Virus record (IMG/VR): IMGVR_UViG_3300048836_000035
Length of the DNA: 44,940 bases
Strand: one strand, 5' to 3'
DNA from: a virus
The notes below the pieces were generated by a model. The model saw only the letters and a list, made by a program, of their open reading frames with translations, did no database searches and was not told the origin of the DNA. Below, in pieces: positions 13,629 to 37,421 of this stretch. How positions within the stretch are numbered: the first letter of the stretch is position 1; every line of letters starts with the position of its first letter. The position numbers and the translations under genes are program-made.

Positions 13629-14126
13629 TCATGCATCTATCCACGTCGTGTATCGGTCCCACGCCTCCCGTGTATAGAGCCCGTACGGGTGCTCGATGTG
13701 CAGCTGCCTCGCGTTCTCGGCCCAGATGTAATCGTACTCACAGTTCATGTGGTGGCACAGACTCTCTAGGCTGGATCGCAACGGATGGAAGATATCCTCG
13801 TACCAGAACACGGGCAGGTTGTTACCCGTGGCGAAGTCGTACAGCTTCCTGTCCCACTCCCCCACGTCCTCCATAGTGACTGAGTGGTTCAGCTTGACCA
13901 GAGAGCGCCACGCCGAGGTCGGGTCCCGTAGCAGCACGCAAGCTGGTCCCTCCCCATACTTGCGCCACGCCTTCTCAGGATTGTACGCAGCCCCGGTGTC
14001 TACCACCCCGGCGTTAGGCCCCCACAGGAACGGATCCCGGTGCAGGATCGGATCGTGCAGGTACCCGAGATACGACGCTAGCCACGCGCTTCCGCTTCGT
14101 GGGAGCGCCAGTACTACCGGACGCAC
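13629..14126 (-). CDS. Sulfotransferase-like P-loop protein (tentative)
   Basis: GTG start. The N-terminal LALPRSGSAWL resembles the 5'-PSB loop of sulfotransferases. 165 aa. Confidence 0.35.
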   Translation of the reverse strand: MRPVVLALPRSGSAWLASYLGYLHDPILHRDPFLWGPNAGVVDTGAAYNPEKAWRKYGEGPACVLLRDPTSAWRSLVKLNHSVTMEDVGEWDRKLYDFATGNNLPVFWYEDIFHPLRSSLESLCHHMNCEYDYIWAENARQLHIEHPYGLYTREAWDRYTTWIDA

Positions 14127-24144: not shown

Positions 24145-24160
24145 TGTCATACGTATGACG
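24145..24160. promoter_or_regulatory. Palindrome copy, 15/16, 12 nt upstream of ATG 24132
   Basis: The - strand reads CGTCATACGTATGACA-taggagaactgg-ATG. Confidence 0.9.
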
Positions 24161-24270
24161 TATGGTCCGGCACGCCACCGTGCCATGACCCGCCGTCCGC
24201 CCCGGCCTGCCCAACAGGTCCGGGGCTACCGGGTTGAGGGACTCGGGTACGTTCACCCTCGTCCCCCGTA

Positions 24271-24309
24271 CTATACTTAGTATAGACCATTTTTCCCGGA
24301 TTTTATGCA
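24271..24309 (-). promoter_or_regulatory. 39-bp bipartite promoter-like element, copy A
   Basis: The - strand reads TGCATAA-N14-GGTCTATACTAAGTATAG. Lies between the sigma-like gene stop (24330) and the replication module. Confidence 0.6.
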
Positions 24310-24329
24310 CGGTGTTAAAAAGAAAGTTA

Positions 24330-25112
24330 CTACGCGCCCTTTACAAGGGCCTCGCGTAGGGCCAGTCCCACGTCACGCACCTTGCGGGACACCGTGGACT
24401 GGTCCATATCGTGCGTCTCGGCAATCTCTGCCTGCGTTTTCTCCTGTACCACAACAGCGTGGTAGATGCTCCACGCTTCCTGTCCGCAGGCCTCGACTGC
24501 CACTCTCTCCAAGAACTCTCGCAGATTCTCTGACACTACATCACTCTCCGGTGTTGCCAATGTTACCGACGTCAGGTACGCGTGAGGCACGTACCCGTTC
24601 CCCATCATCGCAGCCTCAAGCTGCACCAACGGCTCCTCGATTTCCTCCTCGTCACCTGAGTACGGGTCCTCCCCCGGCAGGTCCAAGTTCGCCTCCATGA
24701 TCTCGGGCAGGTGTCCCCGCCCGTCCTTCACCCGCTGCACGTGCATCCACAGACTCCGGTTGAACATGGCCATGAGCGAGGCCACCTGCTCAGGCACCCG
24801 CGTCACGTAGTCCTGCACGTACATCAGGGCGTCCGTTGCCACGTTCGCTGCTTCCTCGTAGTCCATGCCACCCCGTGATGCGCGGGCAACCATGACCTTC
24901 CAGACCAGCGCCCAGACGATGTGCCGAGCCGCGTCATCCCCGGCTACGAACCGGTCCTGATAGGCCCGTACCTTCTTCTCCAGAGCGGACACCCCCTCGT
25001 CGTCCGTGTGCTGCACCCCCGTGGCTCGTAGCTCCATCATGCCCGCCACCCACGTCTTGTGGATCTCGGCACTCTTGGCCTTGTAGTAGTTCTCGTACGT
25101 TCGCTCACTCAT
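24330..25112 (-). CDS. Sigma-70-family (ECF-like) sigma factor candidate
   Basis: Region-2-like IVWALVWKVMVARASRGGMDYEEAANVATDALMYVQDY. Region-4.2-like HTH EKTQAEIAETHDMDQSTVSRKVRDVGLALREAL. Confidence 0.6.
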   Translation of the reverse strand: MSERTYENYYKAKSAEIHKTWVAGMMELRATGVQHTDDEGVSALEKKVRAYQDRFVAGDDAARHIVWALVWKVMVARASRGGMDYEEAANVATDALMYVQDYVTRVPEQVASLMAMFNRSLWMHVQRVKDGRGHLPEIMEANLDLPGEDPYSGDEEEIEEPLVQLEAAMMGNGYVPHAYLTSVTLATPESDVVSENLREFLERVAVEACGQEAWSIYHAVVVQEKTQAEIAETHDMDQSTVSRKVRDVGLALREALVKGA

Positions 25113-25459
25113 CCTGTGATCTCCTGTCTCAGCTTAAGGCACAAGTCCCGCGCCCTCGTGGCGTCACCGTCCGAGATAGCGTGCAGGATCTCCGAGTTCA
25201 GAAGAAGCAGATCCCCGTACAGTGTGGCCCGCAAGTGCCGGAGCGCCGACTCTCTAACCTGAGCCTGCCCCTCCACCGTGGCCCCGTGCGTCACGCGGTA
25301 AGTTACCGTGACTCGCAGCTGCATCGTGTGCTCGTCCATGTACGAACTAGGCACCGACCGTACGTCGTCAAGCCGCTCAACCGTAAGGGGCTGACGCTCG
25401 AAGCCGTTGCGCACACGCACCCCGGTAGCTCCCTCAATCAAGTTGTCGAAGATGCTCAT
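25109..25459 (-). CDS. Hypothetical protein (116 aa)
   Basis: ATGA coupling on both sides. Confidence 0.55.
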   Translation of the reverse strand: MSIFDNLIEGATGVRVRNGFERQPLTVERLDDVRSVPSSYMDEHTMQLRVTVTYRVTHGATVEGQAQVRESALRHLRATLYGDLLLLNSEILHAISDGDATRARDLCLKLRQEITG

Positions 25460-25719
25460 TCCCCGTCCCCCATCTGGTGGAACCCCTCGTAGCACGGCTT
25501 GAGCGGGGGCTTAGGCGGGATCTTCGGGGCCAAGTCCGCCCGCTCCAACACCCAGTCCGCCAAGTCCACGGCTGCCTTGATCTCCGCCACCGTTCGGTCG
25601 AATTCCTTAGCCACCACGTGCAGGGGCTTCTCGTCCACCTTCACACACAACCAGATGGCCCGGAGCCTGCTGCCAAGCACGGTATCCAGCGCCTCGTTCA
25701 CCTTCTGCCACTCGTTCAT
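25456..25719 (-). CDS. Small HTH protein (sigma region-4/LuxR-like pattern)
   Basis: RLRAIWLCVKVDEKPLHVVAKEFDRTVAEIKAAVDLA. First gene of the sigma operon. Confidence 0.45.
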   Translation of the reverse strand: MNEWQKVNEALDTVLGSRLRAIWLCVKVDEKPLHVVAKEFDRTVAEIKAAVDLADWVLERADLAPKIPPKPPLKPCYEGFHQMGDGE

Positions 25720-25859
25720 TCTGCGTACCTCTTTAGCGTCCTGTCATTCTTGAGTACAAATACATGGCGTTGAGTGCCACGTTCCAGTACGAGTAGCTGG
25801 CTACTGAGTACCTCGTCAATCGTGCTGACACTTGCAACACTTCATGTGGTGAAGTGTTA

Positions 25860-26072
25860 TTAGCACGGATCTTCCAATCCATTATCATGCCCATCGTCCT
25901 CATGTATTAGCTTCCATTGGCGATCATACAGCGCCCCGCAATCTCCACAAAGATAGTTGTCGTTGGAGGCATAGAACCAAGTAGACCGGCACTGACATTG
26001 CGCCAAGCACTTGATCCCGTTGACATAGACGAACTCAACCGCATCACCACGTTCCCAGTCCTCCCTGCTCAT
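25860..26072 (-). CDS. Zinc-ribbon protein (70 aa)
   Basis: CLAQCQC...CGDCG pattern. Confidence 0.5.
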   Translation of the reverse strand: MSREDWERGDAVEFVYVNGIKCLAQCQCRSTWFYASNDNYLCGDCGALYDRQWKLIHEDDGHDNGLEDPC

Positions 26073-26212
26073 GACGTTCTCCTTCTGTCGAAGTAGTCGG
26101 ATGCGACTCCGCGCAGGACAACCGCGCTGCGGTACGTGCTGTCCCGTATGTGCTCCAACGTGGACTCTGCTTCGGCCAGCCGCGCCACGAGTGCGTCATA
26201 GTCGGACGCCAT
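26069..26212 (-). CDS. Short RLAEA-motif paralogue (47 aa)
   Basis: MASDYDALVARLAEAESTLEHIRD shares the motif with the two upstream genes. No clear SD. Confidence 0.3.
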   Translation of the reverse strand: MASDYDALVARLAEAESTLEHIRDSTYRSAVVLRGVASDYFDRRRTS

Positions 26213-26288
26213 CACGACGATATAGCAGGATGATTTGAGGCAATGCGATTCGTAGTCATGGATATTTGATCGACTCACGCCGTAGTAA

Positions 26289-26666
26289 TCAACCACGCCT
26301 TTCCTCCCGCCCAAGGTGGGCGTCGATGCGGGCGAGGAATTCGCTCCGCTCCTCCTGAAATCCGGCAATCGGCCTAGACCAGCAAGGCGCGTCGATTTCC
26401 TCCCGCGTCTCCCGCAGCAGCGCGTCCGCCTCGGCCAGCCGCGAGCGCAGGCGCTCGTTGTCTCCGAGTAGCTGCTTATAGTCGTCTGACAACAGCACAT
26501 AGTCCGTGCGCAGGGACTCGATCTCGGCGTCACGCCAGTCCTTGAGCGGATACGACGCTGGTGCATTGTTGGGGTATGGAACTCCGCATAAGTGAACGGT
26601 CGCCGTGTCTGACGGATAGAGATACAGCCCGCACGACGGGCAGCGCGGAACGTCACCGGCACTCAT
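26289..26666 (-). CDS. RLAEA-motif paralogue with N-terminal CxxC (125 aa)
   Basis: Start MSAGDVPRCPSCG follows gggag. Contains AEIESLRT...LRSRLAEADALL...FLARIDAHL. Confidence 0.5.
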   Translation of the reverse strand: MSAGDVPRCPSCGLYLYPSDTATVHLCGVPYPNNAPASYPLKDWRDAEIESLRTDYVLLSDDYKQLLGDNERLRSRLAEADALLRETREEIDAPCWSRPIAGFQEERSEFLARIDAHLGREERRG

Positions 26667-26976
26667 GGCTCTGCTCCCGCGCAAGGAAGGCGTCGATGTT
26701 GGAAATCGCACGCATTACTGCACACGACTCTGCGTGTGGCCTGTAGTCTCTTACGTGACAGCACGATCTAACTCCGAACTCCGCGCCTTCTTCAAAGTCA
26801 CTATGCTCAGCGACTTCGATGAGCGTCACCCTTGTGCTGTGCAGGCACACATCGGCCTCGGCCAGCCGCGAGCGCAGACTCTCGATCTCAGCCTCGCGTG
26901 CCTCGTAGACCAGCGAGCACACGTCCCACTGGTGGGCGTCCAGCCCCAGTTCCTTGAACAGTTCGTGCTTGCTCAT
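26653..26976 (-). CDS. RLAEA-motif paralogue (107 aa)
   Basis: Contains AEIESLRSRLAEADVCL...NIDAFLARE. Shares a 22-bp identical DNA stretch with 26429-26450. Confidence 0.55.
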   Translation of the reverse strand: MSKHELFKELGLDAHQWDVCSLVYEAREAEIESLRSRLAEADVCLHSTRVTLIEVAEHSDFEEGAEFGVRSCCHVRDYRPHAESCAVMRAISNIDAFLAREQSHECR

Positions 26977-27755
26977 ACCGCCACCCCCAGCTTCTCACGG
27001 AAGCGTTCCACGTAGAAGTCCAGCGTAGACCCCTCGATGCCCGGTGCCGTGTTGACCTCCAGAACCCGAGCCTCCCCTGCGTTGTTGCACATGAGATCCA
27101 CCGCAGCGAAGTCCAATCCGAGCGCAGCTACCGCAGAGCAAGCCGTTGAAGTCACAGAATTGGGAGCCTCAATCTCCCGTGTGCAGTACACGTAGCCGTT
27201 GCGGTGGTTACGCACAGCGTTAGGCTCCGCTCCGTTGCGCCGCCGCTTCTTCTGCGCCAGATGGTACGGGCCGAACACGTGGACCCGGTACTCATGCTCG
27301 GCACGGAACCGCTTGGTGTACAGCGGGGCATCCGGCATATCGTCCTCCCCGATGGGCACGGCAGACTCGGGATCTACGATCTCGATTCCGCTGCCTCCCT
27401 GCCCCGTGGTAGAGTGGCGAGCGAACACCGTGTGTCCGCCCTGCGCCCACGCAAAGGCGAGCGCCCTGTCGGTCGTCCACTCCACCGTCGGCACCCGTGC
27501 CTCGGTCAGCGCCTTGAAGCAGGCCAGCTTGTCACGGGCCACAGCCACCCGGTCGAAACCGTTGAGCACGTTCACGAACCCACGCAGGGGCCTGCCCATC
27601 CCGTTGTGCCTGCCCCAGTTGATGAGCACGTCCCCGTCCCGTGACAGGAAGCGGCTGGTCCCATCCAGCTTGATGCGCTTGACGCGCAGGGCACGGGACA
27701 GCAGCTTGGCCGAGTTGCTCGGGCCGTAAGGAATGATTCTGATACGTCTACGCAT
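26973..27755 (-). CDS. ATP-grasp ligase (RimK-like)
   Basis: Start MRRRIRI follows aggagagg. C-terminus EYRVHVFG...NHRNGYVY...LGLDFAAVDLM...RVLEVNTAPGIEGST fits the ATP-grasp fold pattern. Confidence 0.75.
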   Translation of the reverse strand: MRRRIRIIPYGPSNSAKLLSRALRVKRIKLDGTSRFLSRDGDVLINWGRHNGMGRPLRGFVNVLNGFDRVAVARDKLACFKALTEARVPTVEWTTDRALAFAWAQGGHTVFARHSTTGQGGSGIEIVDPESAVPIGEDDMPDAPLYTKRFRAEHEYRVHVFGPYHLAQKKRRRNGAEPNAVRNHRNGYVYCTREIEAPNSVTSTACSAVAALGLDFAAVDLMCNNAGEARVLEVNTAPGIEGSTLDFYVERFREKLGVAV

Positions 27756-27767
27756 AGTCCTCTCCTG

Positions 27768-27783
27768 TGTCATACGTATGACA
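27768..27783. promoter_or_regulatory. Palindrome copy, 16/16, between the GATase stop and the ATP-grasp SD
   Basis: Stop at 27786-88. The - strand reads motif-caggagaggact-ATG (27755). Confidence 0.9.
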
Positions 27784-27785
27784 GG

Positions 27786-29198
27786 TTAGTGCAGGCCAAC
27801 GGCCAACTTCTGGTTGTCGTCAAAGCATCCGGGGCAGATGCACCGGCTGCCGTTGTTCACCCACCCGCAGATCTCTGCCTCGTCCGCCATCAGGCGGTCG
27901 CCGCATTGGTAGCACCCGTCAGCCGTGGCCTTGATCCACTCGTCGACCGGCACCCACTCCCCGTGTGCGGCAGGCACGTACTCTCCGCCCTTCAACCCGC
28001 CCCTGCGGTCAAGGGACGACACGTTCGCAGTACCAGAGTAATACGTCCGGTTCACCAGACGAGCCACGATCATCGGGTCCGCCCCCTTGTCCAGCCCACG
28101 CACGGCCACGGGCCGCACCGTCCACCGCTCCGCGTTGTCCTTGCAGTTCTCGACCGCCGAGTACAGGCAGTGCATCACCACAGCAGGGAGCAGCATACCG
28201 CCGTCCGGGTGGATGATGTTGCCCGACACGAGGGCTGTCGGCAGGCCAGCCACCGGGGTGACGAGGGACGGTACGAACAGGCAGTCCGTCTCGGCGTCAA
28301 GGTCATGCTCCAGCAGCATCAACTCACTTTCTTCGGGGACCTTTGTAGGGGCGGCGCTGCCCGACCACGGCGGCAGCGGGTTGCTTCTCCGGGGTGCGCT
28401 CCCCTGAGAGCCACCGCCGTACCATCCCGCCGAGCGACGGCTGCTGTAGGACGGCACGTACAAAGGGACCGACTGTACCTCGGGGACGGTACTACCGGGG
28501 CGGAAGGTCAGCAACTCTCCCGGCTTGGGGTACGCAATGGTCCCGCCGTGGAAGTTGTTGCGCTTAGCCAGCCAATGCAGCATCTCCGCCTCGCTCGCCA
28601 GTAGCACCGTGTCCTCGCACTCGGCGAAGTACATATGCAGGGGGCGCTTGTCATTGCGGATCACACGCACAGCGTTGTCCCGAGCGTCATGCCAGATCAG
28701 GGTGAACGCCCCGTCCAGCAGCTTGATGACCTCGGCAGGGTCGGTAGCCTCGGCCAGATTGTGCGCGATGGCGTGGCTGTCCACTTCCACCCCCTCGCCC
28801 TTCAACTCCCACAGGGACTTGCCCAAGTCGTAGGTGCTGTTGAGCGTGCCGTTGTGGACCAGCGTGATCGGCCCCTCTTGGAACGGGTGCGCGTTGTCCA
28901 CGCTGACTGTGCCCACCGTGGCCGAGCGGTTGTGCCCGATGACAGCCCGCAGGTCGCACGTGTTGGAGTATGTCATGCGGTCCTGATACTCCTTGCTGGC
29001 GACTAGCTCGTAGCCGTCGGCTGCGACCTTGAACCAGTCGGCAGCCTGACCGTCCTCCATCTTGTGCCCCACGGTGAAGATGCCCGTGCTGTCGTCACCG
29101 CGCACGGTGCCAGCAATGAGCGCGTTCTCCATGAACTTGCGGCGATCACCTGCGCCGCGCGCCTTCTCGTTGGTGATGAATCCTACTATTCCACACAT
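27786..29198 (-). CDS. Class-II (Ntn) glutamine amidotransferase-domain protein with C-terminal Cys-rich Zn-ribbon
   Basis: N-terminal MCGIVG nucleophile Cys2. HNRSATVG...NAHPF...LVHNGTL. C-terminal CYQCGD...CICPGC. Confidence 0.75.
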   Translation of the reverse strand: MCGIVGFITNEKARGAGDRRKFMENALIAGTVRGDDSTGIFTVGHKMEDGQAADWFKVAADGYELVASKEYQDRMTYSNTCDLRAVIGHNRSATVGTVSVDNAHPFQEGPITLVHNGTLNSTYDLGKSLWELKGEGVEVDSHAIAHNLAEATDPAEVIKLLDGAFTLIWHDARDNAVRVIRNDKRPLHMYFAECEDTVLLASEAEMLHWLAKRNNFHGGTIAYPKPGELLTFRPGSTVPEVQSVPLYVPSYSSRRSAGWYGGGSQGSAPRRSNPLPPWSGSAAPTKVPEESELMLLEHDLDAETDCLFVPSLVTPVAGLPTALVSGNIIHPDGGMLLPAVVMHCLYSAVENCKDNAERWTVRPVAVRGLDKGADPMIVARLVNRTYYSGTANVSSLDRRGGLKGGEYVPAAHGEWVPVDEWIKATADGCYQCGDRLMADEAEICGWVNNGSRCICPGCFDDNQKLAVGLH

Positions 29199-30205
29199 CA
29201 GACTTCTCCTTCCTCGTCAGAGGCTTCGGGTTCTGGTTCGTCGTAAATCTCGTCGTCTTCGTCGTATTCCGGCAGTTCGTCCTCGTCCCCATCCTCGTTG
29301 TCCAGAGTGGCGAACCTCTGAGTGGGCAGCCACGATCCAAGGTCAGGGCCGGGCTCGACCCCCTCGCCCACATCGAACGCACACGGCACTCCCCACCCTG
29401 ACTGTGCGTAGGTCACGGGCTGGAACAGCAGGGCTGTCTCGACCGCACCTAGATCGTGGAGCAGCGCCTCAAGTGCAGAGTCAGGCATATTGATCTGCTC
29501 GTACAGTTCCCCGAACAGCAGCTTGACTACTGCCGCAACCCCTTCCTGTGCGTACAGTTCGATGGGGTCGGGCAGCGTGTAGGCGTTAGCTGTCATACGT
29601 ATGACACGGACCCACGCTTCCAACTGCTCCGGGGTGTCGAACGTCCGAGCGTGCCGGAACTCCAGCGTACCGAACGTGCGCAGCGGACCAGCGAACAGTC
29701 CGCTGTACTTGCACGACTGGCGCAACGAGAACATGTCCCCAGAACGTAGCGCCCTGCTCACCAGCGCCGCCTCGTCGGGTGCCCTGTACCACGGCACGCA
29801 GAAGATGTTTTCCTCGCGCTCCGTGCCAGCCCACAGGAACACCAGCGGCTCGACCATAGCGTAGTACGTACAGATCCGCGCCACTTCATCGAAGGTACGC
29901 CCGAGCATATTGGCGTGGACGTGGATGCCCGTCCGTTCCGACGGCTCCCAATGCTTGCGCGTCTTGCCGTACAGGTAGTGAACGGCAGTCGCCACGTCGT
30001 CGGGTGGCAGGAACTTAGACACGAACTCAGCGCCAGAGTTCCGCAACGAGCCGTCGTCCTTGATGTGCCAGTACTTGGTCATCTTGTTCGCCAGTTCCAG
30101 TCTGGTACCCAAGTCGAACCTCTCGACCTCGACCTCGATGCCGTAGCCCTCGGTCGTGGGCGAGTTGAACTCGTTGGCCGAGTAGTCAGCGACGATAGGG
30201 GTCAT
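29198..30205 (-). CDS. Amidoligase (glutamine-synthetase-like, Amidoligase_2 pattern) with polyacidic C-terminal tail
   Basis: Motifs GIEVEVE, DGSLRNSGAEFVS, TGIHVHAN and GTLEFRHARTFD. ATGA coupling upstream and TGATG downstream. Confidence 0.8.
   Translation of the reverse strand: MTPIVADYSANEFNSPTTEGYGIEVEVERFDLGTRLELANKMTKYWHIKDDGSLRNSGAEFVSKFLPPDDVATAVHYLYGKTRKHWEPSERTGIHVHANMLGRTFDEVARICTYYAMVEPLVFLWAGTEREENIFCVPWYRAPDEAALVSRALRSGDMFSLRQSCKYSGLFAGPLRTFGTLEFRHARTFDTPEQLEAWVRVIRMTANAYTLPDPIELYAQEGVAAVVKLLFGELYEQINMPDSALEALLHDLGAVETALLFQPVTYAQSGWGVPCAFDVGEGVEPGPDLGSWLPTQRFATLDNEDGDEDELPEYDEDDEIYDEPEPEASDEEGEV
29591..29606. promoter_or_regulatory. Palindrome copy, 16/16, inside the amidoligase gene
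   Basis: Read in frame as R-V-I-R-M-T-A. Confidence 0.9.
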
Positions 30206-30867
30206 AGTTCCACCGTCCATTGCACTCTCCCATTCAGCGCCCGGTTGATGAGGCGACACGTCGTCGTGTCAGCGATAGGCTCCAGCAGCCCGCCGCTTTG
30301 AGTGGCAGCGACCTGCCCTCGGTAGTAGATCATGCGCTTACCCACTTGGTCCTGCGCCACGATGATGCGCCGATTGATGGCGATACTGAGCCATCCCTCA
30401 GCGAGCAGAGCAAGCGCCTCGTCCACGTTCGGCGGGTACCACGGAGCCCACAGATGGGGCACGGTATGCGCCGACAGGTTCTTGACCTGAGCGTACGCCA
30501 GAGAGCCACGCACCTTCCGCACCTCCCACCCACGAGGCACGACCACCTTCACCTGACGCCCGTTCAGCGTGCGCCGGTACTGCCGAGCCGGGATGCGCTC
30601 GACGCTGATCGCTACCTTGTGAGTCGGGATGTTGATGCTCCCGCAGATGGGCCACCACCCTGCGATCCGGGAGACAGGGCAAGTCGTCCGTTCCTCAAAG
30701 CGACTGCTCGCCTTGCGGATACGAGCGTATCGCTCGCTCCCGTCGTCGTCCACGAGGCGGTCGTAGATGGCAGGCTCGTAGCCCCCGCCTGTATCCACGA
30801 TGCAATAGCCCCCGCCTAACCATTGGGCTAGGTCGTCAGCCGATATGCCTTCCGGCAACTCAATCAT
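30202..30867 (-). CDS. Hypothetical protein (221 aa) inside the ligase cassette
   Basis: SD ggaggg. No motif recognised. Confidence 0.6.
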   Translation of the reverse strand: MIELPEGISADDLAQWLGGGYCIVDTGGGYEPAIYDRLVDDDGSERYARIRKASSRFEERTTCPVSRIAGWWPICGSINIPTHKVAISVERIPARQYRRTLNGRQVKVVVPRGWEVRKVRGSLAYAQVKNLSAHTVPHLWAPWYPPNVDEALALLAEGWLSIAINRRIIVAQDQVGKRMIYYRGQVAATQSGGLLEPIADTTTCRLINRALNGRVQWTVEL

Positions 30868-31223
30868 TTTGCACCCTCCATTTGTTGTACGTATGACACG
30901 GACGCGACGTTGACGGGCACCAGTACGAACGCAGCAAGGGCACGCGCCTCTGCTGGCGTCACCTTGCGCTTGGGCGGCTCCGGTGTGGGAGGCGGGATCG
31001 CCGTGCCACTCTCCGGGTACTTCATCTGCACGTGAACGGACTCGACCGGATCACCTTCCAGCGCCACCATCTGCAACGCACGCCGCTCCGCTTCCTCCGC
31101 ACTCAGGCACAGGAACTCGCACATGTACGTGCTGGCGTTCTCGCCTGAGGTAGTCACCTTCACGGTGTACCACTTCAGGCCGAGTTGGTTAGGCGTTTGC
31201 ACGGACGAACTCCCGCTCGTCAT
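30864..31223 (-). CDS. Hypothetical protein (start uncertain)
   Basis: ORF between the GGCT gene and the 221-aa gene. Several candidate starts. Confidence 0.35.
   Translation of the reverse strand: MTSGSSSVQTPNQLGLKWYTVKVTTSGENASTYMCEFLCLSAEEAERRALQMVALEGDPVESVHVQMKYPESGTAIPPPTPEPPKRKVTPAEARALAAFVLVPVNVASVSYVQQMEGAK
30883..30898. promoter_or_regulatory. Degenerate palindrome copy (14/16), 15 nt upstream of ATG 30867
   Basis: tgtTGtacgtatgaca. The right half and flank (atgacacggac) are identical to the copy at 29591. Confidence 0.6.
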
Positions 31224-31623
31224 CGGTCGGCAGCCACACCTGCGTGCCATGCACGTAGTCGACGGACGGCTTGACCGCGAGGTACGAGTGCGGCAGGAAG
31301 TACGCCCACGCTCCCTTCCACGGGGTCTGCACCTTGTGCCGACAGTAGTAGTCGGGGTGGCCCTCGATCATGTCCAGCATATCCAGCTGGCCCTTGCTGA
31401 TCCGATAGACCTCACCGAGGATCAGCGTCTCGGTCTTGTCGGTCGGAGTGTGCACCAGTCCGGGGTAGTAGTGCAGGTCCAGCATCCTGTACTGCCCGCG
31501 CAGCACGCACCGCCCGAGCAGGTCTGCACCTGACAGCGCGGAGTGATTGCCGCGCCCCTGCTTGAGCGATCCGTACACGAACACACGGATGCCCTGCGAA
31601 TCAACCTTCGTTTCATCAGCCAT
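31189..31623 (-). CDS. Gamma-glutamyl cyclotransferase (AIG2/GGACT-like)
   Basis: Motifs VFVYGSLKQGRGNH, YPGLV, LGEVYRI and LDMIEGHPDYY. Confidence 0.8.
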   Translation of the reverse strand: MADETKVDSQGIRVFVYGSLKQGRGNHSALSGADLLGRCVLRGQYRMLDLHYYPGLVHTPTDKTETLILGEVYRISKGQLDMLDMIEGHPDYYCRHKVQTPWKGAWAYFLPHSYLAVKPSVDYVHGTQVWLPTDDEREFVRANA

Positions 31624-32465
31624 TAGAGAATCTCCAGTCCAAAGTCAGACACATACTCCCGCAACTGGTACGCAAGCGTACCGTCTGCGGTCCCAATCGC
31701 ACGTCGCACGTCAGCCCACGGCATCTCGTTGTAGATGCGCCGCACTTCCTGCTCTCCACGCGCCAGCACGCCCATCGCACCGAACGCCATGCTCCCCACG
31801 TGCAGCGCCGAGCGCGTCGTCATGGTCCACGAGTTGCCGAGTGTGCGGTACTCGATCCCGTAGCGGGTAGGTCGGTAGCGTCCGGGGCTGCCGTAGAACT
31901 GCCGACGCTTGCCCTGATTGTCCATGTTGTGGACCAGAGCAGGCAGCCCGATCATCAGGTCGCAGATTGTGGCAGCCACGAAGTCGGGGCACTCCCACCC
32001 GAGGTATTCGCGGTAGCCCAAGTGGACGTGCCCACCTGCGAAGCGCCACGCTCCGCCCGGTTCCGTCAACTCGGACGGCTGGATGCGGGGCAGCGGAGCG
32101 CCCTGCTCGTAGGCGTTGAAGTCCGGGCTGCACCCGAACATCTGCGCCTGAGGGTTGGCGAGGGCCGCCTCGTTGAAGAACACCGAGCAGTCCGGCCACG
32201 CCTGCACCCCCGGCACCGTCTGCCGCAGCTTGGCAAGCGCCAACTGCCTGCCTCGCACCACCACGTCCGCGAAAGAGTGCGGGTCGGACACGGGCGGCAC
32301 GTTGTACTCCGCCATCACGTTGTCCTCTTGCACCGCGAACCCACTTCCGGCCCCGCCAACGGGGATCGGTTTGTCCTTCGTCCCACCGAGCAGCCCAACA
32401 ATGGGCAGCACGCTGTTCCCATCACGAGTGATGAAGAACTCAGGATCAGCGCCTATCGTGAACAT
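31623..32465 (-). CDS. phiEco32-type COOH-NH2 ligase (type 2 amidoligase)
   Basis: MFTIGADPEFF...VQEDNVMAEYNVPP...GCSPDFNAY...FAGGHVHLG...RYGIEYRTLGNSW matches the family pattern, recalled from memory. Confidence 0.8.
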   Translation of the reverse strand: MFTIGADPEFFITRDGNSVLPIVGLLGGTKDKPIPVGGAGSGFAVQEDNVMAEYNVPPVSDPHSFADVVVRGRQLALAKLRQTVPGVQAWPDCSVFFNEAALANPQAQMFGCSPDFNAYEQGAPLPRIQPSELTEPGGAWRFAGGHVHLGYREYLGWECPDFVAATICDLMIGLPALVHNMDNQGKRRQFYGSPGRYRPTRYGIEYRTLGNSWTMTTRSALHVGSMAFGAMGVLARGEQEVRRIYNEMPWADVRRAIGTADGTLAYQLREYVSDFGLEIL

Positions 32466-32478
32466 CTGCCTTCTCCTT

Positions 32479-32494
32479 TGTCATACGTATGACA
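32479..32494. promoter_or_regulatory. Palindrome copy, 16/16, between stop 32496 and the SD/ATG at 32465
   Basis: The - strand reads motif-aaggagaaggcag-ATG. Confidence 0.9.
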
Positions 32495-32495
32495 T

Positions 32496-33485
32496 TTAAC
32501 CGTTGTTCCACAGACCGACGGGCTGCTGCGCCAGATACGCAGGGGTACGCGCCGCCAGCCGCCAATAGTCGGGAATCGTCAAGTCAGACGCCTTCTCGAT
32601 AGGGCGCGTGACATACTCCTCCAGTTCCTCGTCCCATATCTCGTCCATGGCCTCGTCGTCGTGGTCCCCGTCCAACGAGAAGGACAGGTTGATTGCCCCG
32701 ACCATGCTGCCCGAGTTGGAGTTCAGGTACTCCGGTGCCTCGTGTACGTTCACGGCCACGGCCCGAGTGTAGCGGTAGTGGTCGTCGCCGAGGACCGTCG
32801 CGCCCAACAGTTCCTCGGTCACGGTCTGGTCCTGAGACTTGTCGATGCGAGTCTCCCGATTGGCGTACTCAGCGTCGTAGACCGGGCCACACGTGAAGTT
32901 CGGCACGGCTTGCAGCTTGGCTGCCGTGCGCATCACGTTGCGCATCTTTGACCGATTGTTAGCCGCCCTGTCGAACGCGAAGATGCCCCGCTTCCCGACC
33001 TCAATCATACGGGCCAGCGCCCAGTACATAAGGCTCCGGTCCATGATCTCCGCCACTTCGCGCCGACTCAGCGACCGCTCAGCACGCAGCGCGTCGTGGA
33101 TGGACGGCACGTTCGCCCGTTCTGCGTGTGACACCCTGAGGTGACTCGCCCCGAGCGTCCCGAGGCGTGGCGCAGACCACTGGTTTTCCTGCTCGTGGGT
33201 GAAGATGGTCCCACCCGACGACGCCAGCACTCCGCCGCAGAAGTCGTGGATGTGCTGCCCGAGCAGCATCCGAGTCTCGGCCATACACCAGCGGTCCGAG
33301 TCCTCGGAGTTGCGGAAGCGGTACAGCCCCCACACCCACCACCACGCGGCCCGCTGGTCCGGACCCTCTGCCGGATTGAACGGACGCCACGTGCTGTAGC
33401 CCACCAGCTGGTTACGCGGGAAGCTCCCCACGAACAAGGGCACAAACGCAGTAGCGAGCGGCTGATTGGTGAAAGTCACAGTCAT
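32496..33485 (-). CDS. Hypothetical protein (329 aa)
   Basis: SD ggagaa. Trp-rich N-terminal region and an acidic patch DGDHDDEAMDEIWDEELEE. Confidence 0.65.
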   Translation of the reverse strand: MTVTFTNQPLATAFVPLFVGSFPRNQLVGYSTWRPFNPAEGPDQRAAWWWVWGLYRFRNSEDSDRWCMAETRMLLGQHIHDFCGGVLASSGGTIFTHEQENQWSAPRLGTLGASHLRVSHAERANVPSIHDALRAERSLSRREVAEIMDRSLMYWALARMIEVGKRGIFAFDRAANNRSKMRNVMRTAAKLQAVPNFTCGPVYDAEYANRETRIDKSQDQTVTEELLGATVLGDDHYRYTRAVAVNVHEAPEYLNSNSGSMVGAINLSFSLDGDHDDEAMDEIWDEELEEYVTRPIEKASDLTIPDYWRLAARTPAYLAQQPVGLWNNG

Positions 33486-33496
33486 TTCGATTCTCC

Positions 33497-33512
33497 AGTC
33501 ATACGTATGACA
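33497..33512. promoter_or_regulatory. Palindrome copy, 15/16, overlapping a stop codon and preceding the SD/ATG at 33485
   Basis: The - strand reads TGTCATACGTATGACT-ggagaatcgaa-ATG. The TGA of the 58-aa gene lies within the motif. Confidence 0.9.
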
Positions 33513-33675
33513 TTTCCGACGTTGTGGACTCGACTTCCCGACGCAGTTCAGCCGTGAGGCGCGCTCTCATATCTGCGAAGCGCCCGTGCTTGGACAGGTT
33601 CGGGTAATCGTGCTTGGCCCTACGCTTCGCCTGCCTGTGCCTGCGAACGTAGGGATTGCGAGATTTGCGGCTCAT
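33499..33675 (-). CDS. Arginine-rich basic protein (58 aa)
   Basis: MSRKSRNPYVRRHRQAKRRAKH... ATGA coupling upstream. Its stop codon lies inside palindrome copy 33497-33512. Confidence 0.5.
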   Translation of the reverse strand: MSRKSRNPYVRRHRQAKRRAKHDYPNLSKHGRFADMRARLTAELRREVESTTSEMSYV

Positions 33676-33848
33676 CCCCGCAGCACTCGCGTAACAATGT
33701 ACACCGCAAGCAAGGGAAAGCCAAGCAGCGGCATGGTGAAGCACAGGACAATCGCCACGATGAGTGCCAGCAACGGCAACGCAAGGCAGGCAACTATCCA
33801 TGACACCACGATGAGCAGCAGCATGGCTCCCAACATTTCGGCAATCAT
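33672..33848 (-). CDS. Small two-TM membrane protein (58 aa, below track cutoff)
   Basis: SD ggaggg. MIAEMLGAMLLLIVVSWIVACLALPLLALIVAIVLCFTMPLLGFPLLAVYIV. Confidence 0.5.
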   Translation of the reverse strand: MIAEMLGAMLLLIVVSWIVACLALPLLALIVAIVLCFTMPLLGFPLLAVYIVTRVLRG

Positions 33849-34048
33849 TTCTCAGCCCTCCAAAAGTGTTTGAACCGAGCGGCTATATCGTCATACGTAT
33901 GACACCTGCCGCTCGCAGGTAGCAATACGGGACATACCAGCAGAATCCACGTGCCGGGGTATGTCCAATCCCACGGCATGGCCCACAATTCCGCCATCTC
34001 GTGCGCCCATACCGCGAGTGCAGTCAGGCACACAAGCAAGCGGTTCAC
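33845..34048 (-). CDS. Small membrane protein (67 aa)
   Basis: GTG start 1 nt after the previous TAA. Hydrophobic segments. The palindrome lies in its 3' part, read as C-H-T-Y-D. Confidence 0.4.
   Translation of the reverse strand: MNRLLVCLTALAVWAHEMAELWAMPWDWTYPGTWILLVCPVLLPASGRCHTYDDIAARFKHFWRAEK
33889..33904. promoter_or_regulatory. Palindrome copy, 15/16, 40 nt upstream of ATG 33848
   Basis: cGTCATACGTATGACa. Lies in the 3' end of gene 33845..34048. Confidence 0.9.
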
Positions 34049-34049
34049 G

Positions 34050-34271
34050 TTAGCCCCTATGCGGCTTGTAGTGGGTGTTGCGGGTCCAGAACTCGCCACT
34101 CAGCACGTCCACGGCTCCCACGGGCGACGTGTACGCGGTCGGATGGGCGTCGTGAGGGTGTCCGGGCGGAATGCGCGGGTCGTCGACCACGACCACGATA
34201 GCAGGCAGTCCGATCTGGATGCGATGAGGCAGGTCGTCCCGGTATAGGACGATGGGCTTTGCGTCTGTCAT
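34050..34271 (-). CDS. Hypothetical protein (73 aa)
   Basis: ATGA coupling. Confidence 0.5.
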   Translation of the reverse strand: MTDAKPIVLYRDDLPHRIQIGLPAIVVVVDDPRIPPGHPHDAHPTAYTSPVGAVDVLSGEFWTRNTHYKPHRG

Positions 34272-34450
34272 TTCCCTTCCCCCGTTAGTGACTCTCGGTA
34301 GAGTCGGTTAACGAATTGCTTGATCCGTGCGTGCCGTCCCGCCGCCACACGTGTCATGTTGGGCGTCGTCCGGTCCTGCACCAGCAGGTAGTCGTAAAGC
34401 TGCAAGAGTTCCTTGCGGCTCAACGGCTTTTCACCTAACGGGCGGATCAT
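34268..34450 (-). CDS. Hypothetical protein (60 aa)
   Basis: Start MIRPLGEK. ATGA coupling on both sides. Confidence 0.5.
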   Translation of the reverse strand: MIRPLGEKPLSRKELLQLYDYLLVQDRTTPNMTRVAAGRHARIKQFVNRLYRESLTGEGK

Positions 34451-34659
34451 GCCCCGTCCGCCAGTCTGCCGTACTCGTCGCACTCGGCGTCTGCCTTGCG
34501 TACCGCATCCCCGAATGCCTTGCCGTCGTGATAGACGATGTGGCGGGATGCCTCGCGGGTAGCGAGCCACACTAGCGCGTCAAAGCGGCGGGCTGCCAGC
34601 GTTGCCAGCGTGTCATACGACACGGGCAATTTGGCGGATGGTTTGAGTCTGACGATCAT
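34447..34659 (-). CDS. Hypothetical protein (70 aa)
   Basis: SD aaggtga. The palindrome ends 10 nt upstream of the ATG. Confidence 0.55.
   Translation of the reverse strand: MIVRLKPSAKLPVSYDTLATLAARRFDALVWLATREASRHIVYHDGKAFGDAVRKADAECDEYGRLADGA
34611..34619. promoter_or_regulatory. Half-site TGTCATACG followed by acacgg (looks like a copy lacking TATG)
   Basis: gcgTGTCATACGacacgg, compared with TGTCATACGTATGACacgg at 29591. Confidence 0.4.
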
Positions 34660-34669
34660 GTTGTCACCT

Positions 34670-34685
34670 TGTCATACGTATGACG
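34670..34685. promoter_or_regulatory. Palindrome copy, 15/16, between stop 34686 and the SD/ATG at 34659
   Basis: The - strand reads CGTCATACGTATGACA-aggtgacaac-ATG. Confidence 0.9.
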
Positions 34686-35048
34686 TTAGGCCCGGACCAA
34701 CTGGACGGGTATGCCCCGCAACGTCGCTGCACGGGTCCAAGCAAGTGCGTACAGCGCATCCTCATGTGAGTACACGTTGCCGTCAACGTGGACTTCCCAC
34801 TCCGCCCCACGTGGGCGCAAGTCGCGACCTCGCAGGAATGAATCAATGGACCAATCCGCCATTGCGACCGCAGCGCCCCAATGCGAGCGCGTAGTCTCGC
34901 AGCCCGGATTGAGCGGGGTACGTACAAGCATCTGCGGCAGCACAGCTAGGTGCAGCGGCAGCGGCTTGATGCCACGCGGCTTGCCGACTGTCTTAGTCCG
35001 TGTGGCCCTGCCTTGCGGCTTGGCCCGGAACTTGGTGGAACGTGTCAT
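34686..35048 (-). CDS. Hypothetical basic-N-terminus protein (start uncertain: 35048 or 35081)
   Basis: The ATG at 35048 is the ATG inside the palindrome (MTRSTKFRAKPQGR...). The alternative ATG at 35081 lies ~10 nt from the predicted TSS. Confidence 0.4.
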   Translation of the reverse strand: MTRSTKFRAKPQGRATRTKTVGKPRGIKPLPLHLAVLPQMLVRTPLNPGCETTRSHWGAAVAMADWSIDSFLRGRDLRPRGAEWEVHVDGNVYSHEDALYALAWTRAATLRGIPVQLVRA

Positions 35049-35058
35049 ACGTATGACC
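35043..35058. promoter_or_regulatory. Palindrome copy, 15/16, ~35-50 nt downstream of the predicted sigma-70 promoter
   Basis: TGTCATACGTATGACc. Its ATG (35048) is in frame with ORF 34686..35126. Confidence 0.9.
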
Positions 35059-35097
35059 TTTTGGCCCTTTTCATCAAACATTACTACCAGAGTGCAC

Positions 35098-35126
35098 ATT
35101 ATGACACATTGGGCGCAAAAAGTCAA
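35098..35126 (-). promoter_or_regulatory. Sigma-70-type promoter with extended -10
   Basis: The - strand reads TTGACT (35126-35121), a 17-nt spacer ending in TGt, then CATAAT (35103-35098). Confidence 0.65.
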
Positions 35127-35177
35127 TAGATGGGCGTATTCGGTTTTGGGCGCATCTTGGGCGCAGTCTTGGGCGCA
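35109..35177. repeat. Array of five TTGGGCGCA 9-mers (one variant ATGGGCGTA) around that promoter
   Basis: Copies at 35109-17, 35130-38 (variant), 35146-54, 35157-65 and 35169-77. The last three are 11-12 bp apart. Confidence 0.85.
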
Positions 35178-35230
35178 TCCCTATTCCCGCGCCTTACGCG
35201 AGCGGCTAGCGCGGGTACAAATCGCGGACC

Positions 35231-35264
35231 AAAAAAAAGCCCCCGATCCTTTCGGACCGGGGGC
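35231..35264 (-). terminator. Rho-independent terminator after the first leftward gene
   Basis: The - strand reads gcccccggtccgaaaggatcgggggc followed by tttttttt. Sits 17 nt after the stop at 35281. Confidence 0.85.
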
Positions 35265-35280
35265 AATTGGTGCGCGTGAG

Positions 35281-36318: not shown

Positions 36319-36334
36319 TGTCATACGTATAACA
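36319..36334. promoter_or_regulatory. Palindrome copy, 15/16 (core G to A), at the head of the leftward block
   Basis: TGTCATACGTATaACA, 343 nt upstream of ATG 35976. Confidence 0.8.
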
Positions 36335-36947: not shown

Positions 36948-37223
36948 CTTGGGCCGGGGGCACCCCCCTGCCGTGCAGGCAGGAAAGCGAATGCACCCAA
37001 AGACGCTGATGAGGGGAGGAATAGCTGATTTAACAGCAGTAGGCCCAGAGGCGGGGCATGGAGAGCCCCGAGACCCGGAAGGTCGGCCCGCTGGGCCTCT
37101 GGCGCGACTGACTAAAAACAGGGGTGCAAAGGTCGATCGGTCCACGAGAGACCGACCTCAAGGGCAGAATAGTGCAAGGTAATTCAACACCTAATACACA
37201 ACTAAACAATCTCATCAACAGAA

Positions 37224-37262
37224 TGCATAATTTTGACGTTTTTCGGTCTATACTAGGTATAG
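37224..37262 (+). promoter_or_regulatory. 39-bp bipartite promoter-like element, copy B
   Basis: The + strand reads TGCATAA-N14-GGTCTATACTAGGTATAG, 160 nt upstream of the first late gene. Same spacing as copy A, and 24/25 specified positions are identical. Confidence 0.6.
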
Positions 37263-37421
37263 AGGACGGGGAGGACGTACAACTAGACGACCCGTACGAT
37301 ACCGCCGTTGGGCGGCGGGTATCGAGGGAGCAAGGTACGGACGTGCCATGCGACCGTGCCCGTCGCCTCGGCGGAATAAGAACAGAGGCGCACCAGCGCC
37401 GATTTCTAGGATCATCCTACT

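What the first reader, a model, noticed from the sequence alone, without database searches (positions are those of the whole stretch)
24271..24309. A 39-bp bipartite element occurs twice, once at the head of the replication module and once ahead of the structural operon, each oriented with its operon
The - strand at 24309-24271 reads TGCATAA-N14-GGTCTATACTAAGTATAG. The + strand at 37224-37262 reads TGCATAA-N14-GGTCTATACTAGGTATAG. The spacing is identical, and 24 of the 25 specified positions match.

Copy A lies in the 170-bp gap between the sigma-like gene's stop (24330) and palindrome/ATG 24132. Copy B lies 160 nt upstream of the first late gene (37422). The downstream half contains a good -10 hexamer (TATACT) embedded in an inverted repeat (CTATAC-TAn-GTATAG). 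The element 18 bp upstream (GCATAA) is not a sigma-70 -35 box.

The inference is that these are middle/late promoters read by the phage-encoded sigma-like protein (24330..25112), with the inverted repeat as a possible operator.
Basis: partly seen in the sequence, partly recalled or inferred. Interest (0 to 1): 0.62.

Follow-up and report, generated by a model that had tools for sequence, protein, structure and literature searches.

The report
Phage sigma-factor promoters with shared leader
The two look-alike 39-base stretches are most likely the switches that turn on this uncultivated phage's replication genes and its virion genes. They appear to be read by a sigma factor the phage makes itself, and each is followed by a folded RNA leader; this is a known viral strategy seen here in a new phage group.

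Summary
TGCATAA-N14-GGTCTATACTARGTATAG occurs exactly twice (24309-24271 on the minus strand, 37224-37262 on the plus strand), with 0 copies expected by chance. Each copy points into its operon.

The neighbouring 260-aa protein is a very divergent two-domain sigma factor of the ECF type. This rests on profile, fold and family evidence.

Eight further uncultivated relatives of the sigma gene carry an element of the same build directly after it. Its 7-mer, spaced like a -35 box, changes together with the DNA-reading helix of the sigma's fourth domain. Helix type xVSR goes with T[G/T]CATA[A/C], and type RVSQ with C[T/C]A[G/A]TA[A/G]. This holds in three independent sister pairs.

That is the best available evidence that the phage sigma reads the element.

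The -10 assignment is unsettled: the CTATAC arm and the GTATAR arm are each kept in some relatives and lost in others. The operator idea is likewise unproven.

Both copies run into structured leaders that share a hairpin with an invariant UUGG loop, supported by compensatory changes and absent from Rfam.

This is a known kind of system (phiEco32, phage 7-11). The scan has reported analogous sigma-promoter pairs in other phages.

The parts
24330..25112 (-). Gene for the phage sigma-like protein (P0001, 260 aa). It has an N-terminal helix, a sigma-2-like domain (about residues 43-129), an acidic disordered linker and a sigma-4 helix-turn-helix (188-259). The recognition helix reads DQSTVSRKV.
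   Evidence: - TIGR02937 sigma70-ECF, E 9e-6.
- Among family members, 3 hit Pfam Sigma70_r2 and 9 hit Sigma70_r4.
- The family profile hits ECF sigma structures 5uxx (E 5e-4) and SigL (E 5e-3).
- The profile also reaches true ECF sigmas in the protein database and phage 7-11 gp47 (E 9e-4).
- AF2 model pLDDT 80. Foldseek hits are almost all sigma factors.
24310..24331 (-). AT-rich tract upstream of copy A (CTTTCTTTTTAACA). It may act as an UP-like element. The YAACA block is shared with copy B and with L004, L006 and L109.
   Evidence: Ungapped comparison anchored on the 7-mer.
24303..24309 (-). Copy A 7-mer TGCATAA, the proposed -35 element read by the sigma-4 helix.
   Evidence: It co-varies with the recognition-helix type across relatives.
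24271..24286 (-). Copy A core TCTATACT-AA-GTATAG. It holds the proposed -10 (CTATAC/TATACT) and the start-site region (GTATAG), which together form the inverted repeat.
   Evidence: CTATAC lies 17 nt after the 7-mer. The start site is expected 6-9 nt downstream, by analogy with phage 7-11 (PMC8948821).
24133..24270 (-). Leader A, made of four parts:
- HP1 at 24236-24267: outer stem, tandem GA/GA internal loop, inner stem.
- HP2 at 24199-24226, with a UUGG loop.
- HP3 at 24164-24190.
- A copy of the genome's 14-bp palindrome at 24146-24159, just before the Shine-Dalgarno sequence.
   Evidence: - Fold energy -76.6 kcal/mol, z -5.2.
- Covariance model R1 finds homologous leaders in L006, L108 and L106, E 6e-11 to 6e-7.
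- 18 pairs are 100% paired, 5 of them with compensatory changes.
37202..37223 (+). AT-rich tract upstream of copy B, containing TCAACA.
37224..37230 (+). Copy B 7-mer TGCATAA, the proposed -35 element.
37247..37262 (+). Copy B core TCTATACT-AG-GTATAG, the proposed -10 and start-site region.
37263..37421 (+). Leader B. It holds an HP1-like stem with GA/GA loops (37266-37295), HP2 with the same GUUGGGC loop (37298-37323), and further hairpins before the ATG at 37422.
   Evidence: - Fold energy -69.9 kcal/mol, z -5.1.
- The HP2 alignment that includes this copy is 87.9% paired, and 8 of 11 pairs show changes on both sides.
- The match to model R2 is weak: 12.1 bits, E 0.01 within 301 nt.
- A related late-operon leader in L025:377-462 scores E 3e-3.

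Best explanation
Each copy is a promoter used by the host core RNA polymerase carrying the phage's own ECF-like sigma factor (gene 24330-25112).

Proposed sequence of events:
1. Early genes, including the sigma gene, are transcribed leftward from host sigma-70 promoters, for example TTGACT-17-TGtCATAAT at 35126-35098.
2. The new sigma's C-terminal helix-turn-helix reads the 7-mer TGCATAA as a -35 element.
3. Its sigma-2 domain opens the AT-rich core 17 nt further on (CTATAC/TATACT).
4. Transcription starts inside or just after the GTATAG arm.

Copy A then drives the primase-helicase-polymerase block. Copy B drives the terminase-portal-virion block.

Both transcripts begin with a structured leader: a stem with tandem G.A loops, then a GC-rich hairpin with an invariant UUGG loop. 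This leader probably acts in cis on the RNA, in stability, processing or read-through.

Shown: the repeat, its placement, the sigma-like nature of the protein, the joint conservation of gene and element, the helix/7-mer co-variation, and the conserved RNA pairing. Inferred: the start site, dependence on the sigma, which arm is the -10, and the leader's role.
For: - Exact two-copy motif with 0 expected by chance.
- The genome layout has no phage RNA polymerase; the largest ORFs are an 844-aa virion protein, PolA and the portal.
- A strong sigma-70 promoter sits in the early region only. At A and B the sigma-70 scan finds only different registers that relatives do not keep.
- The protein is sigma-like.
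- In L004/L005, L006, L019, L106, L107, L108, L109 and the near-identical L003, an element of the same build lies directly after the sigma gene. In this set and L021, L022, L104 and L105 (125 kb) it occurs nowhere else, on either strand.
- On a tree built without the recognition helix, three sister pairs switch helix and 7-mer together:
  - P0001 (DQSTVSRKV, TGCATAA) against P0003 (SQQRVSQLV, CTAGTAA), support 95/93.
  - P0008 (SQATVSRMI, TGCATAA) against P0006 (SQQRISQLI, CTAGTAA), support 97/90.
  - P0014 and P0018 (xVSR, TTCATA[A/C]) against P0019 (GRISQ, CTAATAA), support 100/99.
- P0001 and P0003 differ at 5 of the 9 helix residues but at only 1 of the roughly 40 residues before the helix.
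- A published precedent has similar letters: phage 7-11 gp47 promoters GTAAtg-(16)-aCTA, with starts 6-9 nt downstream (PMC8948821).
- Leader conservation.
Against:
- There are only two copies in the genome, so the motif cannot be defined statistically within it.
- CTATAC is not kept in L106 (TATTAGAA) or L107 (TACTAACT). In L006 it lies 4 nt further from the 7-mer, and the leader lies 8 nt closer.
- TATACT matches the sigma-70 -10 at 5 of 6 positions, including A-11 and T-7.
- The helix-turn-helix also resembles the KorA repressor (E 1e-5). The helix/7-mer co-variation therefore shows binding, not that the protein acts as a sigma.
- The sigma-2 assignment rests on remote homology; P0001 alone has no Pfam hit at default thresholds.
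- The 7-mer assignment in L104 and L105 is less certain, because there are two candidate 7-mers.
Confidence: 0.65

Rival explanations
1. These are host sigma-70 promoters with a good -10 (TATACT) and a poor -35. The phage protein works as a DNA-binding activator or repressor at the 7-mer (KorA-like), or is not involved at all.
For: - TATACT matches the sigma-70 -10 at 5 of 6 positions.
- The region is AT-rich and UP-like.
- The helix-turn-helix of the family profile matches KorA/TrfB repressors best (E 1e-5; 9 members hit Pfam KORA).
- Co-variation of helix and 7-mer is equally expected for an activator or a repressor.
Against: - The 7-mer matches TTGACA at only 1 of 6 positions (GCATAA, spacer 18) or 3 of 6 (TGCATA, spacer 19), and there is no TG extension.
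- The sigma-70 scan picks other registers that differ between A and B and are absent in relatives.
- The N-terminal domain matches ECF sigma region 2 in profile, family and fold searches.
- TATACT itself is not conserved in L106, L107 or L006.
Confidence: 0.17
2. The conserved thing is mainly an RNA or DNA structural element, and the 39-bp similarity is a by-product of duplicating that unit. Candidate roles are a leader acting as a processing site, a stabiliser, an antiterminator of the put/nut kind, or an origin-associated structure. Transcription would enter from upstream early promoters.
For: - The leader hairpins are better conserved than parts of the promoter-like core and show compensatory changes.
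- No terminator was detected between the sigma gene and copy A, so read-through is possible.
- Copy A heads the replication genes.
Against: - Copy B faces away from the early genes, across a divergent region. Nothing upstream on its strand could supply transcripts except weak sigma-70-like sites.
- The AT-rich block with a fixed 7-mer-to-core spacing is typical of a promoter.
- The helix/7-mer co-variation concerns the DNA upstream of the leader.
Confidence: 0.1
3. The inverted repeat CTATAC-TAR-GTATAG is an operator for a separate dimeric phage regulator, for instance one of the small early proteins. It would time or shut off the two promoters, on top of sigma recognition.
For: - The window has perfect 6-bp arms in both copies.
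- A similar inverted repeat is present in L109, L108, L019, L025 and L105.
Against: - The repeat is absent in L004, L006, L106 and L107.
- The arm spacing varies (2, 3 or 6 nt), which does not suit one conserved dimer.
- TATA-rich -10 and start regions easily look palindromic.
- No candidate DNA-binding domain was found in the small early ORFs.
Confidence: 0.2
4. The two inverted copies are crossover sites for a site-specific recombinase that inverts the 12.9-kb early segment between them.
For: The two copies are in inverted orientation and flank one block (24310-37223). Each has a palindromic core.
Against: - No recombinase was found among the ORFs scanned.
- The extra similarity lies outside the segment, in the leaders, not inside it.
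- In relatives one copy always follows the sigma gene in the same orientation.
- Inversion would make no regulatory sense here.
Confidence: 0.02

Closest known systems
Late promoters of Salmonella phage 7-11, read by its sigma SaPh711_gp47 (PMC8948821)
   Same: - A podophage without its own RNA polymerase.
- An ECF-like two-domain phage sigma with a region-4 helix-turn-helix.
- A bipartite promoter with similar letters: GTAAtg-(16)-aCTA there, against [C/T]nnRTAA-N17-CTAtac here.
- Promoters oriented with the late operons.
- Early genes transcribed by host sigma-70 and in the opposite direction to the late genes.
- A shared amidoligase-cassette and PolA gene background.
   Different: - The spacing from GTAA to CTA is 17 nt here against 19 nt there.
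- There are two promoters here against eight.
- The sigma is only generically related: hhalign probability 27%, and a profile hit to the region-2 part only, E 9e-4.
- A long conserved structured leader is present here.
- Nothing has been tested experimentally here.
Middle and late promoters of coliphage phiEco32, read by gp36 with cofactor gp79 (PMC12276001, PMC8948821)
   Same: A phage sigma made from early or middle transcripts redirects host core polymerase to middle (replication) and late (virion) genes. The motif has an AT-rich GTATA-type core (tAATGTAtA) close to the start site.
   Different: - phiEco32 promoters have a single element with no -35, and gp36 lacks region-4 homology.
- Here there is a clear upstream 7-mer that co-varies with a region-4 helix.
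- No gp79-like protein was recognised.
Canonical bacterial ECF (group 4) sigma promoters, e.g. E. coli sigma-E or M. tuberculosis SigL/SigH (general knowledge; structures 6dv9 and 6jbq were hit)
   Same: Two-domain sigma architecture (sigma-2 plus sigma-4), a bipartite promoter, and strong specificity that leaves few sites per genome.
   Different: The motif lacks the usual AAC in the -35 and CGT in the -10. The -10 is AT-rich. No anti-sigma gene is evident. The protein has a long acidic linker and, in this phage only, a 40-residue N-terminal helix.
Paired cis-acting leader RNAs of lambdoid phages: nutL/nutR boxB hairpins and HK022 putL/putR (general knowledge, not tested here)
   Same: Two related structured RNA elements, one just downstream of each of two diverging promoters, each with a hairpin whose loop is conserved.
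   Different: There is no sequence or Rfam similarity, no N-like protein was recognised, and no function has been shown. This is an analogy only.

Membership tests
Sigma-70 family, ECF-like two-domain sigma (the protein P0001) | A sigma-2 domain (regions 2.1-2.4) homologous to known sigmas | tested here: met
   - Family profile against PDB: 5uxx E 4.8e-4 and SigL 6dv9 E 5e-3, both over the N-terminal domain.
- 3 members hit Pfam Sigma70_r2, best E 2.3e-5.
- The profile reaches ECF sigmas carrying PF04542 and PF07638.
- It also hits 7-11 gp47.
The homology is remote; P0001 alone has no Pfam hit.
Sigma-70 family, ECF-like two-domain sigma (the protein P0001) | A C-terminal sigma-4 helix-turn-helix | tested here: met
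   TIGR02937 E 9e-6 over residues 142-248. Sigma70_r4 is hit in 9 of 16 members. The same stretch also resembles the KorA helix-turn-helix.
Sigma-70 family, ECF-like two-domain sigma (the protein P0001) | An overall fold like solved sigma factors | tested here: met
   AF2 pLDDT 80. Foldseek PDB hits are almost all sigma factors: AlgU, sigma-E, SigB, SigL, SigH, SigW. BFVD hits are phage sigma factors, including the GAP52 ECF sigma. TM-scores are low (0.2-0.3) because the placement of the two domains relative to each other is free.
Sigma-70 family, ECF-like two-domain sigma (the protein P0001) | Binds core RNA polymerase and directs initiation | not testable with these tools
   Needs biochemistry.
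Phage-sigma-dependent middle/late promoters (the phiEco32 / 7-11 kind) | The motif heads middle or late operons, is oriented with them, and is absent elsewhere | tested here: met
Phage-sigma-dependent middle/late promoters (the phiEco32 / 7-11 kind) | The motif occurs together with the phage sigma gene in relatives, and its specificity tracks the sigma | tested here: met
   An element follows the sigma gene in 8 further lineages. Helix and 7-mer co-vary in 3 sister pairs. Terminase relatives without this sigma lack the element.
Phage-sigma-dependent middle/late promoters (the phiEco32 / 7-11 kind) | Transcripts start 6-9 nt downstream and appear after the sigma is made | not testable with these tools
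Phage-sigma-dependent middle/late promoters (the phiEco32 / 7-11 kind) | Sequence match to the published consensus (7-11 GTAAtg-16-aCTA; phiEco32 tAATGTAtA) | tested here: not met
   RTAA and CTA are present, but 17 nt apart instead of 19. There is no AATGTATA. The element has the same grammar but is not the same motif.
Host sigma-70 promoter | A -35 hexamer with at least 4 of 6 matches to TTGACA, 16-18 nt upstream of a TATAAT-like -10, in a conserved register | tested here: not met
   The scan found TTAACA-18-AAAAAT at A and TAAACA-17-CATAAT at B. These are different registers, and neither is kept in relatives. With TATACT as the -10, the -35 matches at only 1-3 of 6 positions.
Canonical ECF promoter (AAC-containing -35, CGT-containing -10) | AAC in the -35 and CGT in the -10, with a 16-17 nt spacer | tested here: not met
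   Neither block fits.
Symmetric operator for a dimeric regulator | The inverted repeat is kept, with fixed spacing, in relatives | tested here: inconclusive
   It is kept in about 6 of 11 lineages, with spacers of 2, 3 or 6 nt.
Any described RNA family (Rfam 15) for the leader | A covariance-model match | tested here: not met
   No match at E up to 1 over the whole window.

The most novel reading that the evidence does not exclude
The shared leader is a new cis-acting RNA module that works together with the phage sigma. It consists of a stem with tandem G.A loops plus a GC hairpin with an invariant UUGG loop, placed right after both sigma-dependent promoters and after the late promoter of a relative. 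It might act by binding the transcribing polymerase or a phage protein, making middle and late transcription resistant to termination or to RNA decay. That would be a put/nut-like system in a virulent podophage that uses its own sigma.
Probability: 0.15. Interest if true: 0.75.

Novelty: new member of a known kind. Interest (0 to 1): 0.48.

Why it matters
The finding gives a complete, testable transcription circuit for an uncultivated group of phages that lack their own polymerase: host sigma-70 early promoter, then phage sigma, then two cognate promoters.

The natural helix/7-mer switches (xVSR with TGCATAA, RVSQ with CTAGTAA) amount to a ready-made specificity-swap experiment. They could supply pairs of sigma factors and promoters that do not cross-react, for synthetic biology.

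The sigma family is missed by Pfam and PHROGs at default thresholds, so similar circuits are probably under-annotated in viral metagenomes.

The conserved leader adds an RNA motif that no database holds.

Tried and rejected
- Nucleotide and protein searches of cultured phages with the element's surroundings and the sigma found nothing.
- The closest cultured phages by PolA are StenR_269 and VpV262 (38-43% identity). Neither has this sigma.
- Eighty terminase relatives from IMG/VR lack the element and the first late gene. Ten long or complete contigs among them lack the sigma. Only L025 carries the late leader.
- Metagenome scans with a protein alignment and with a 28-mer from the leader returned nothing. 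A 20-mer of the L106-type leader returned nothing in viral contigs. The 16-mer GACCTGTTGGGCAGGC gave only chance hits apart from G001.
- MAFFT misaligned the leaders, so a covariance model was seeded from two sequences and extended.
- A relaxed search for more promoters in the window gave one 3-mismatch site at 13702 (-), inside a coding region. This is within chance expectation: 3-10 hits at the search's 4-mismatch cut-off in random sequence.
- Other hairpins with a TTGG loop in the window are weaker, lie in coding sequence and are only loosely enriched (10 found against 1-8, mean 4.4, in 20 random sequences).
- The inversion-site idea was rejected (see rival explanations).

Full report
**Observation.** The minus strand at 24309-24271 and the plus strand at 37224-37262 carry TGCATAA-N14-GGTCTATACTARGTATAG. 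The spacing is identical and the copies differ at one specified base. A search allowing three mismatches finds only these two sites, and 100 dinucleotide-preserving shuffles gave none. The core GGTCTATACTA has no further convincing copy.

**Setting.** The window looks like a whole podophage genome of 60% GC.
- Plus-strand genes from 37422 run through the terminase (38906-40180) and an SU10/P22-type portal (40117-42111). They continue at the window start with tail fibre, internal virion and lysis-type proteins.
- Minus-strand genes run leftward from about 37145. In order: small unknown ORFs, an amidoligase cassette, the sigma-like gene (25112-24330), copy A, two small ORFs, then primase, DnaB-like helicase, PolA, exonuclease and nucleotide enzymes.
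- No ORF resembles an RNA polymerase, and none of the scanned ORFs is a recombinase.
- A near-consensus sigma-70 promoter (TTGACT-17-CATAAT with TG) lies in the early region at 35126-35098.

Copy A therefore separates the early block, which ends with the sigma gene, from the replication block. Copy B heads the virion block, in the divergent control region.

**The protein.** P0001 has no Pfam or PHROG hit at default thresholds, but several lines agree that it is a sigma factor.
- It matches TIGR02937 (sigma70-ECF) at 9e-6.
- An exhaustive HMMER search found 14 relatives.
- In the 16-sequence family alignment A1, three members hit Sigma70_r2 (best E 2.3e-5) and nine hit Sigma70_r4.
- The family profile hits ECF sigma structures over the N-terminal domain: 5uxx at 4.8e-4 and SigL at 5e-3.
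- The profile reaches true ECF sigmas in the protein database and finds the sigma gp47 in the phage 7-11 genome, which serves as a positive control (E 9e-4).
- The AlphaFold model (pLDDT 80) has two helical domains joined by a disordered acidic linker.
- Its Foldseek neighbours are almost exclusively sigma factors, in PDB (AlgU, sigma-E, SigB, SigL, SigH, SigW) and among viral models (RpoE-like phage proteins, the GAP52 ECF sigma).

The C-terminal helix-turn-helix also resembles KorA repressors (1e-5). I keep this as a caveat.

**Relatives.** The lineage is rare. One near-identical 27-kb IMG/VR contig exists (G001/L003). Short or medium contigs carry sigma homologues of 20-62% identity: L004/L005, L006, L019/L020, L021, L022, L104, L105, L106, L107, L108 and L109. 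L019 and L106 show the same gene order: amidoligase cassette, sigma, helicase, PolA.

In L004, L006, L106, L107, L108, L109 and L019 the DNA right after the sigma stop codon has the same build as copies A and B. There is an AT-rich tract, then a 7-mer, then 16-17 nt, then a TATA-rich core. The whole region is 26-33% GC against about 60% for the genome. A combined pattern (7-mer, spacer, then CTATA or GTATAR) occurs only at these places and at copy B. It occurs nowhere else in 125 kb of window and relatives on either strand.

**Ungapped register, counted from the end of the 7-mer.**
- Columns 17-24 read TCTATACT in copies A and B, TCTATACA in L108, ACTATACT in L109 and ACTATACC in L004. L019 has CTATAA one base later. 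L107 has TACTAACT and L106 has TATTAGAA. In L006, CTATAT lies four bases later.
- Columns 27-32 read GTATAG or GTATAA in A, B, L106, L107 and L108, and ATATAG in L109. L004 and L006 do not keep this block.

If the 7-mer is a -35 element, only the left arm (spacer 17-18) fits sigma-70-family geometry. The right arm would then be the start-site region. The assignment remains open.

The inverted repeat as such is kept in the window, L109, L108, L019, L025 and L105, with spacers of 2, 3 or 6 nt. It is absent in L004, L006, L106 and L107. This neither supports nor excludes an operator.

**The key new evidence.** The 7-mer comes in two types, and so does the recognition helix of the sigma's helix-turn-helix.

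| 7-mer | Recognition helix | Where |
|---|---|---|
| TGCATAA | Q-[S/A]-T-V-S-R | window, L106 |
| TTCATA[A/C] | Q-S-[M/A]-V-S-R | L104, L105 |
| CTAGTAA, CTAGTAG, CCAGTAA, CTAATAA | Q-[Q/G]-R-[V/I]-S-[Q/E] | L004, L006, L108, L107, L109, L019 |

I built a maximum-likelihood tree of the proteins with the nine helix residues removed.
- P0001 is sister to P0003 (support 95/93).
- P0008 is sister to P0006 (97/90).
- P0014 and P0018 group with P0019 (100/99).
- The well-supported branches force at least four helix-type changes.

In each of the three sister contrasts the 7-mer follows the helix, not the phylogeny. P0001 and P0003 are 62% identical overall and differ at one of the roughly 40 residues before the helix, but at five of the nine helix residues. 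With three independent contrasts this is suggestive rather than decisive. It is nevertheless what direct reading of the 7-mer by this protein predicts.

**Sigma-70 alternative.** With TATACT as the -10, the -35 candidates match TTGACA at 1-3 of 6 positions, and there is no TG extension. The consensus scan instead reports TTAACA-18-AAAAAT at A and TAAACA-17-CATAAT at B. These are two different registers that relatives do not keep.

**Published precedents.** phiEco32 gp36 promoters have the single element tAATGTAtA. Phage 7-11 gp47 promoters are bipartite, GTAAtg-(16)-aCTA, with starts 6-9 nt downstream (PMC8948821; PMC12276001). The present element, [C/T]nnRTAA-N17-CTAtac, has the same grammar and similar letters as the 7-11 motif, with a spacer 2 nt shorter. 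The sigmas are only generically related (hhalign probability 27%).

**Leader.** The similarity between A and B continues downstream. Both leaders fold far better than shuffled sequence (z about -5).

In A-type leaders the first hairpin is an outer stem (GGAC/GUCC or GAAC/GUUC), then a symmetric GA/GA internal loop, then an inner stem. The second is a GC-rich hairpin with a one-base bulge and a UUGG loop, followed by GGACG.

A covariance model seeded from window A and L004 finds L006 (E 5.6e-11), L108 (6e-7) and L106 (6.5e-7). In that structural alignment all 18 pairs are paired in every sequence, and five pairs carry compensatory changes. Slid controls pair at 35-48%. The alignment was fitted to the model, which favours this result.

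An ungapped 35-nt alignment of the second hairpin, which includes copy B and L107, is 87.9% paired. Changes on both sides occur in 8 of 11 pairs, and TTGG is invariant in the loop. Slid controls pair at 36-58%.

The rebuilt model finds one more instance, L025:377-462 (E 3e-3). It lies 1.2 kb upstream of a terminase 85% identical to the window's, and is preceded by AATATAC-TA-GTATAAG. This is a late-operon head in a relative. Copy B itself matches the model only weakly: 12 bits, though it is the best hit on the right strand at the right place.

Rfam has nothing in the window. The leader's function is unknown. Its position suggests an RNA-level role in stability, processing or read-through.

**Limits.** Start sites, sigma dependence, the -10 assignment and the operator idea therefore remain inferences.

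**Verdict.** The operator part is open. The unit is larger than reported, since it includes a conserved leader. It is a new member of a known kind of system. The scan has already reported similar phage sigma-promoter pairs on other DNA.

Noticed in passing
window 24146-24159 (-); L104, L105, L021, L022: One copy of the genome's 14-bp palindrome GTCATACGTATGAC sits in leader A, just before the Shine-Dalgarno sequence. The distant sigma relatives instead carry runs of AACGTT(AACGTT) palindromes at the same kind of place, before gene starts. Palindromes ahead of genes therefore seem to be a habit of the whole phage group, with a lineage-specific sequence.
   Followed up: partly
window 35109-35177 (+), compared with 24212-24217 (-) and 37308-37313 (+): The loop of the second leader hairpin reads GUUGGGC in both copies. 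TTGGGC is also the start of the TTGGGCGCA repeats that surround the early sigma-70 promoter. This may be coincidence, or one protein may recognise both.
   Followed up: no
L025:270-345: Upstream of the late-operon core in this relative there are four TTACGA repeats and a perfect 8-bp hairpin (GTGCCCTT-GTGGA-AAGGGCAC) where the window has its 7-mer. The upstream promoter half is therefore lineage-specific.
   Followed up: no
window 24993-25112 (-), residues 1-40 of P0001: The window's sigma has a 40-residue N-terminal helix that every relative lacks. The relatives start at about its residue 35-42.
   Followed up: no
window 7377-7474 (+): ARAGORN calls a 98-nt tRNA-Leu(CAG) inside the 498-aa ORF 7254-8750. 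Given its length and position it is probably a false call.
   Followed up: no
L024 (IMGVR_UViG_3300049477_000009) and other terminase relatives: Contigs whose terminase is up to 87% identical to the window's have different genes upstream of it, and no sigma of this family. The packaging module is exchanged between otherwise different phages.
   Followed up: partly
window 13660-13702 (-): The weakly similar site TGCACAT-N17-TCTATACA lies inside a coding region near the convergent end of the two gene blocks. It is at chance level.
   Followed up: yes
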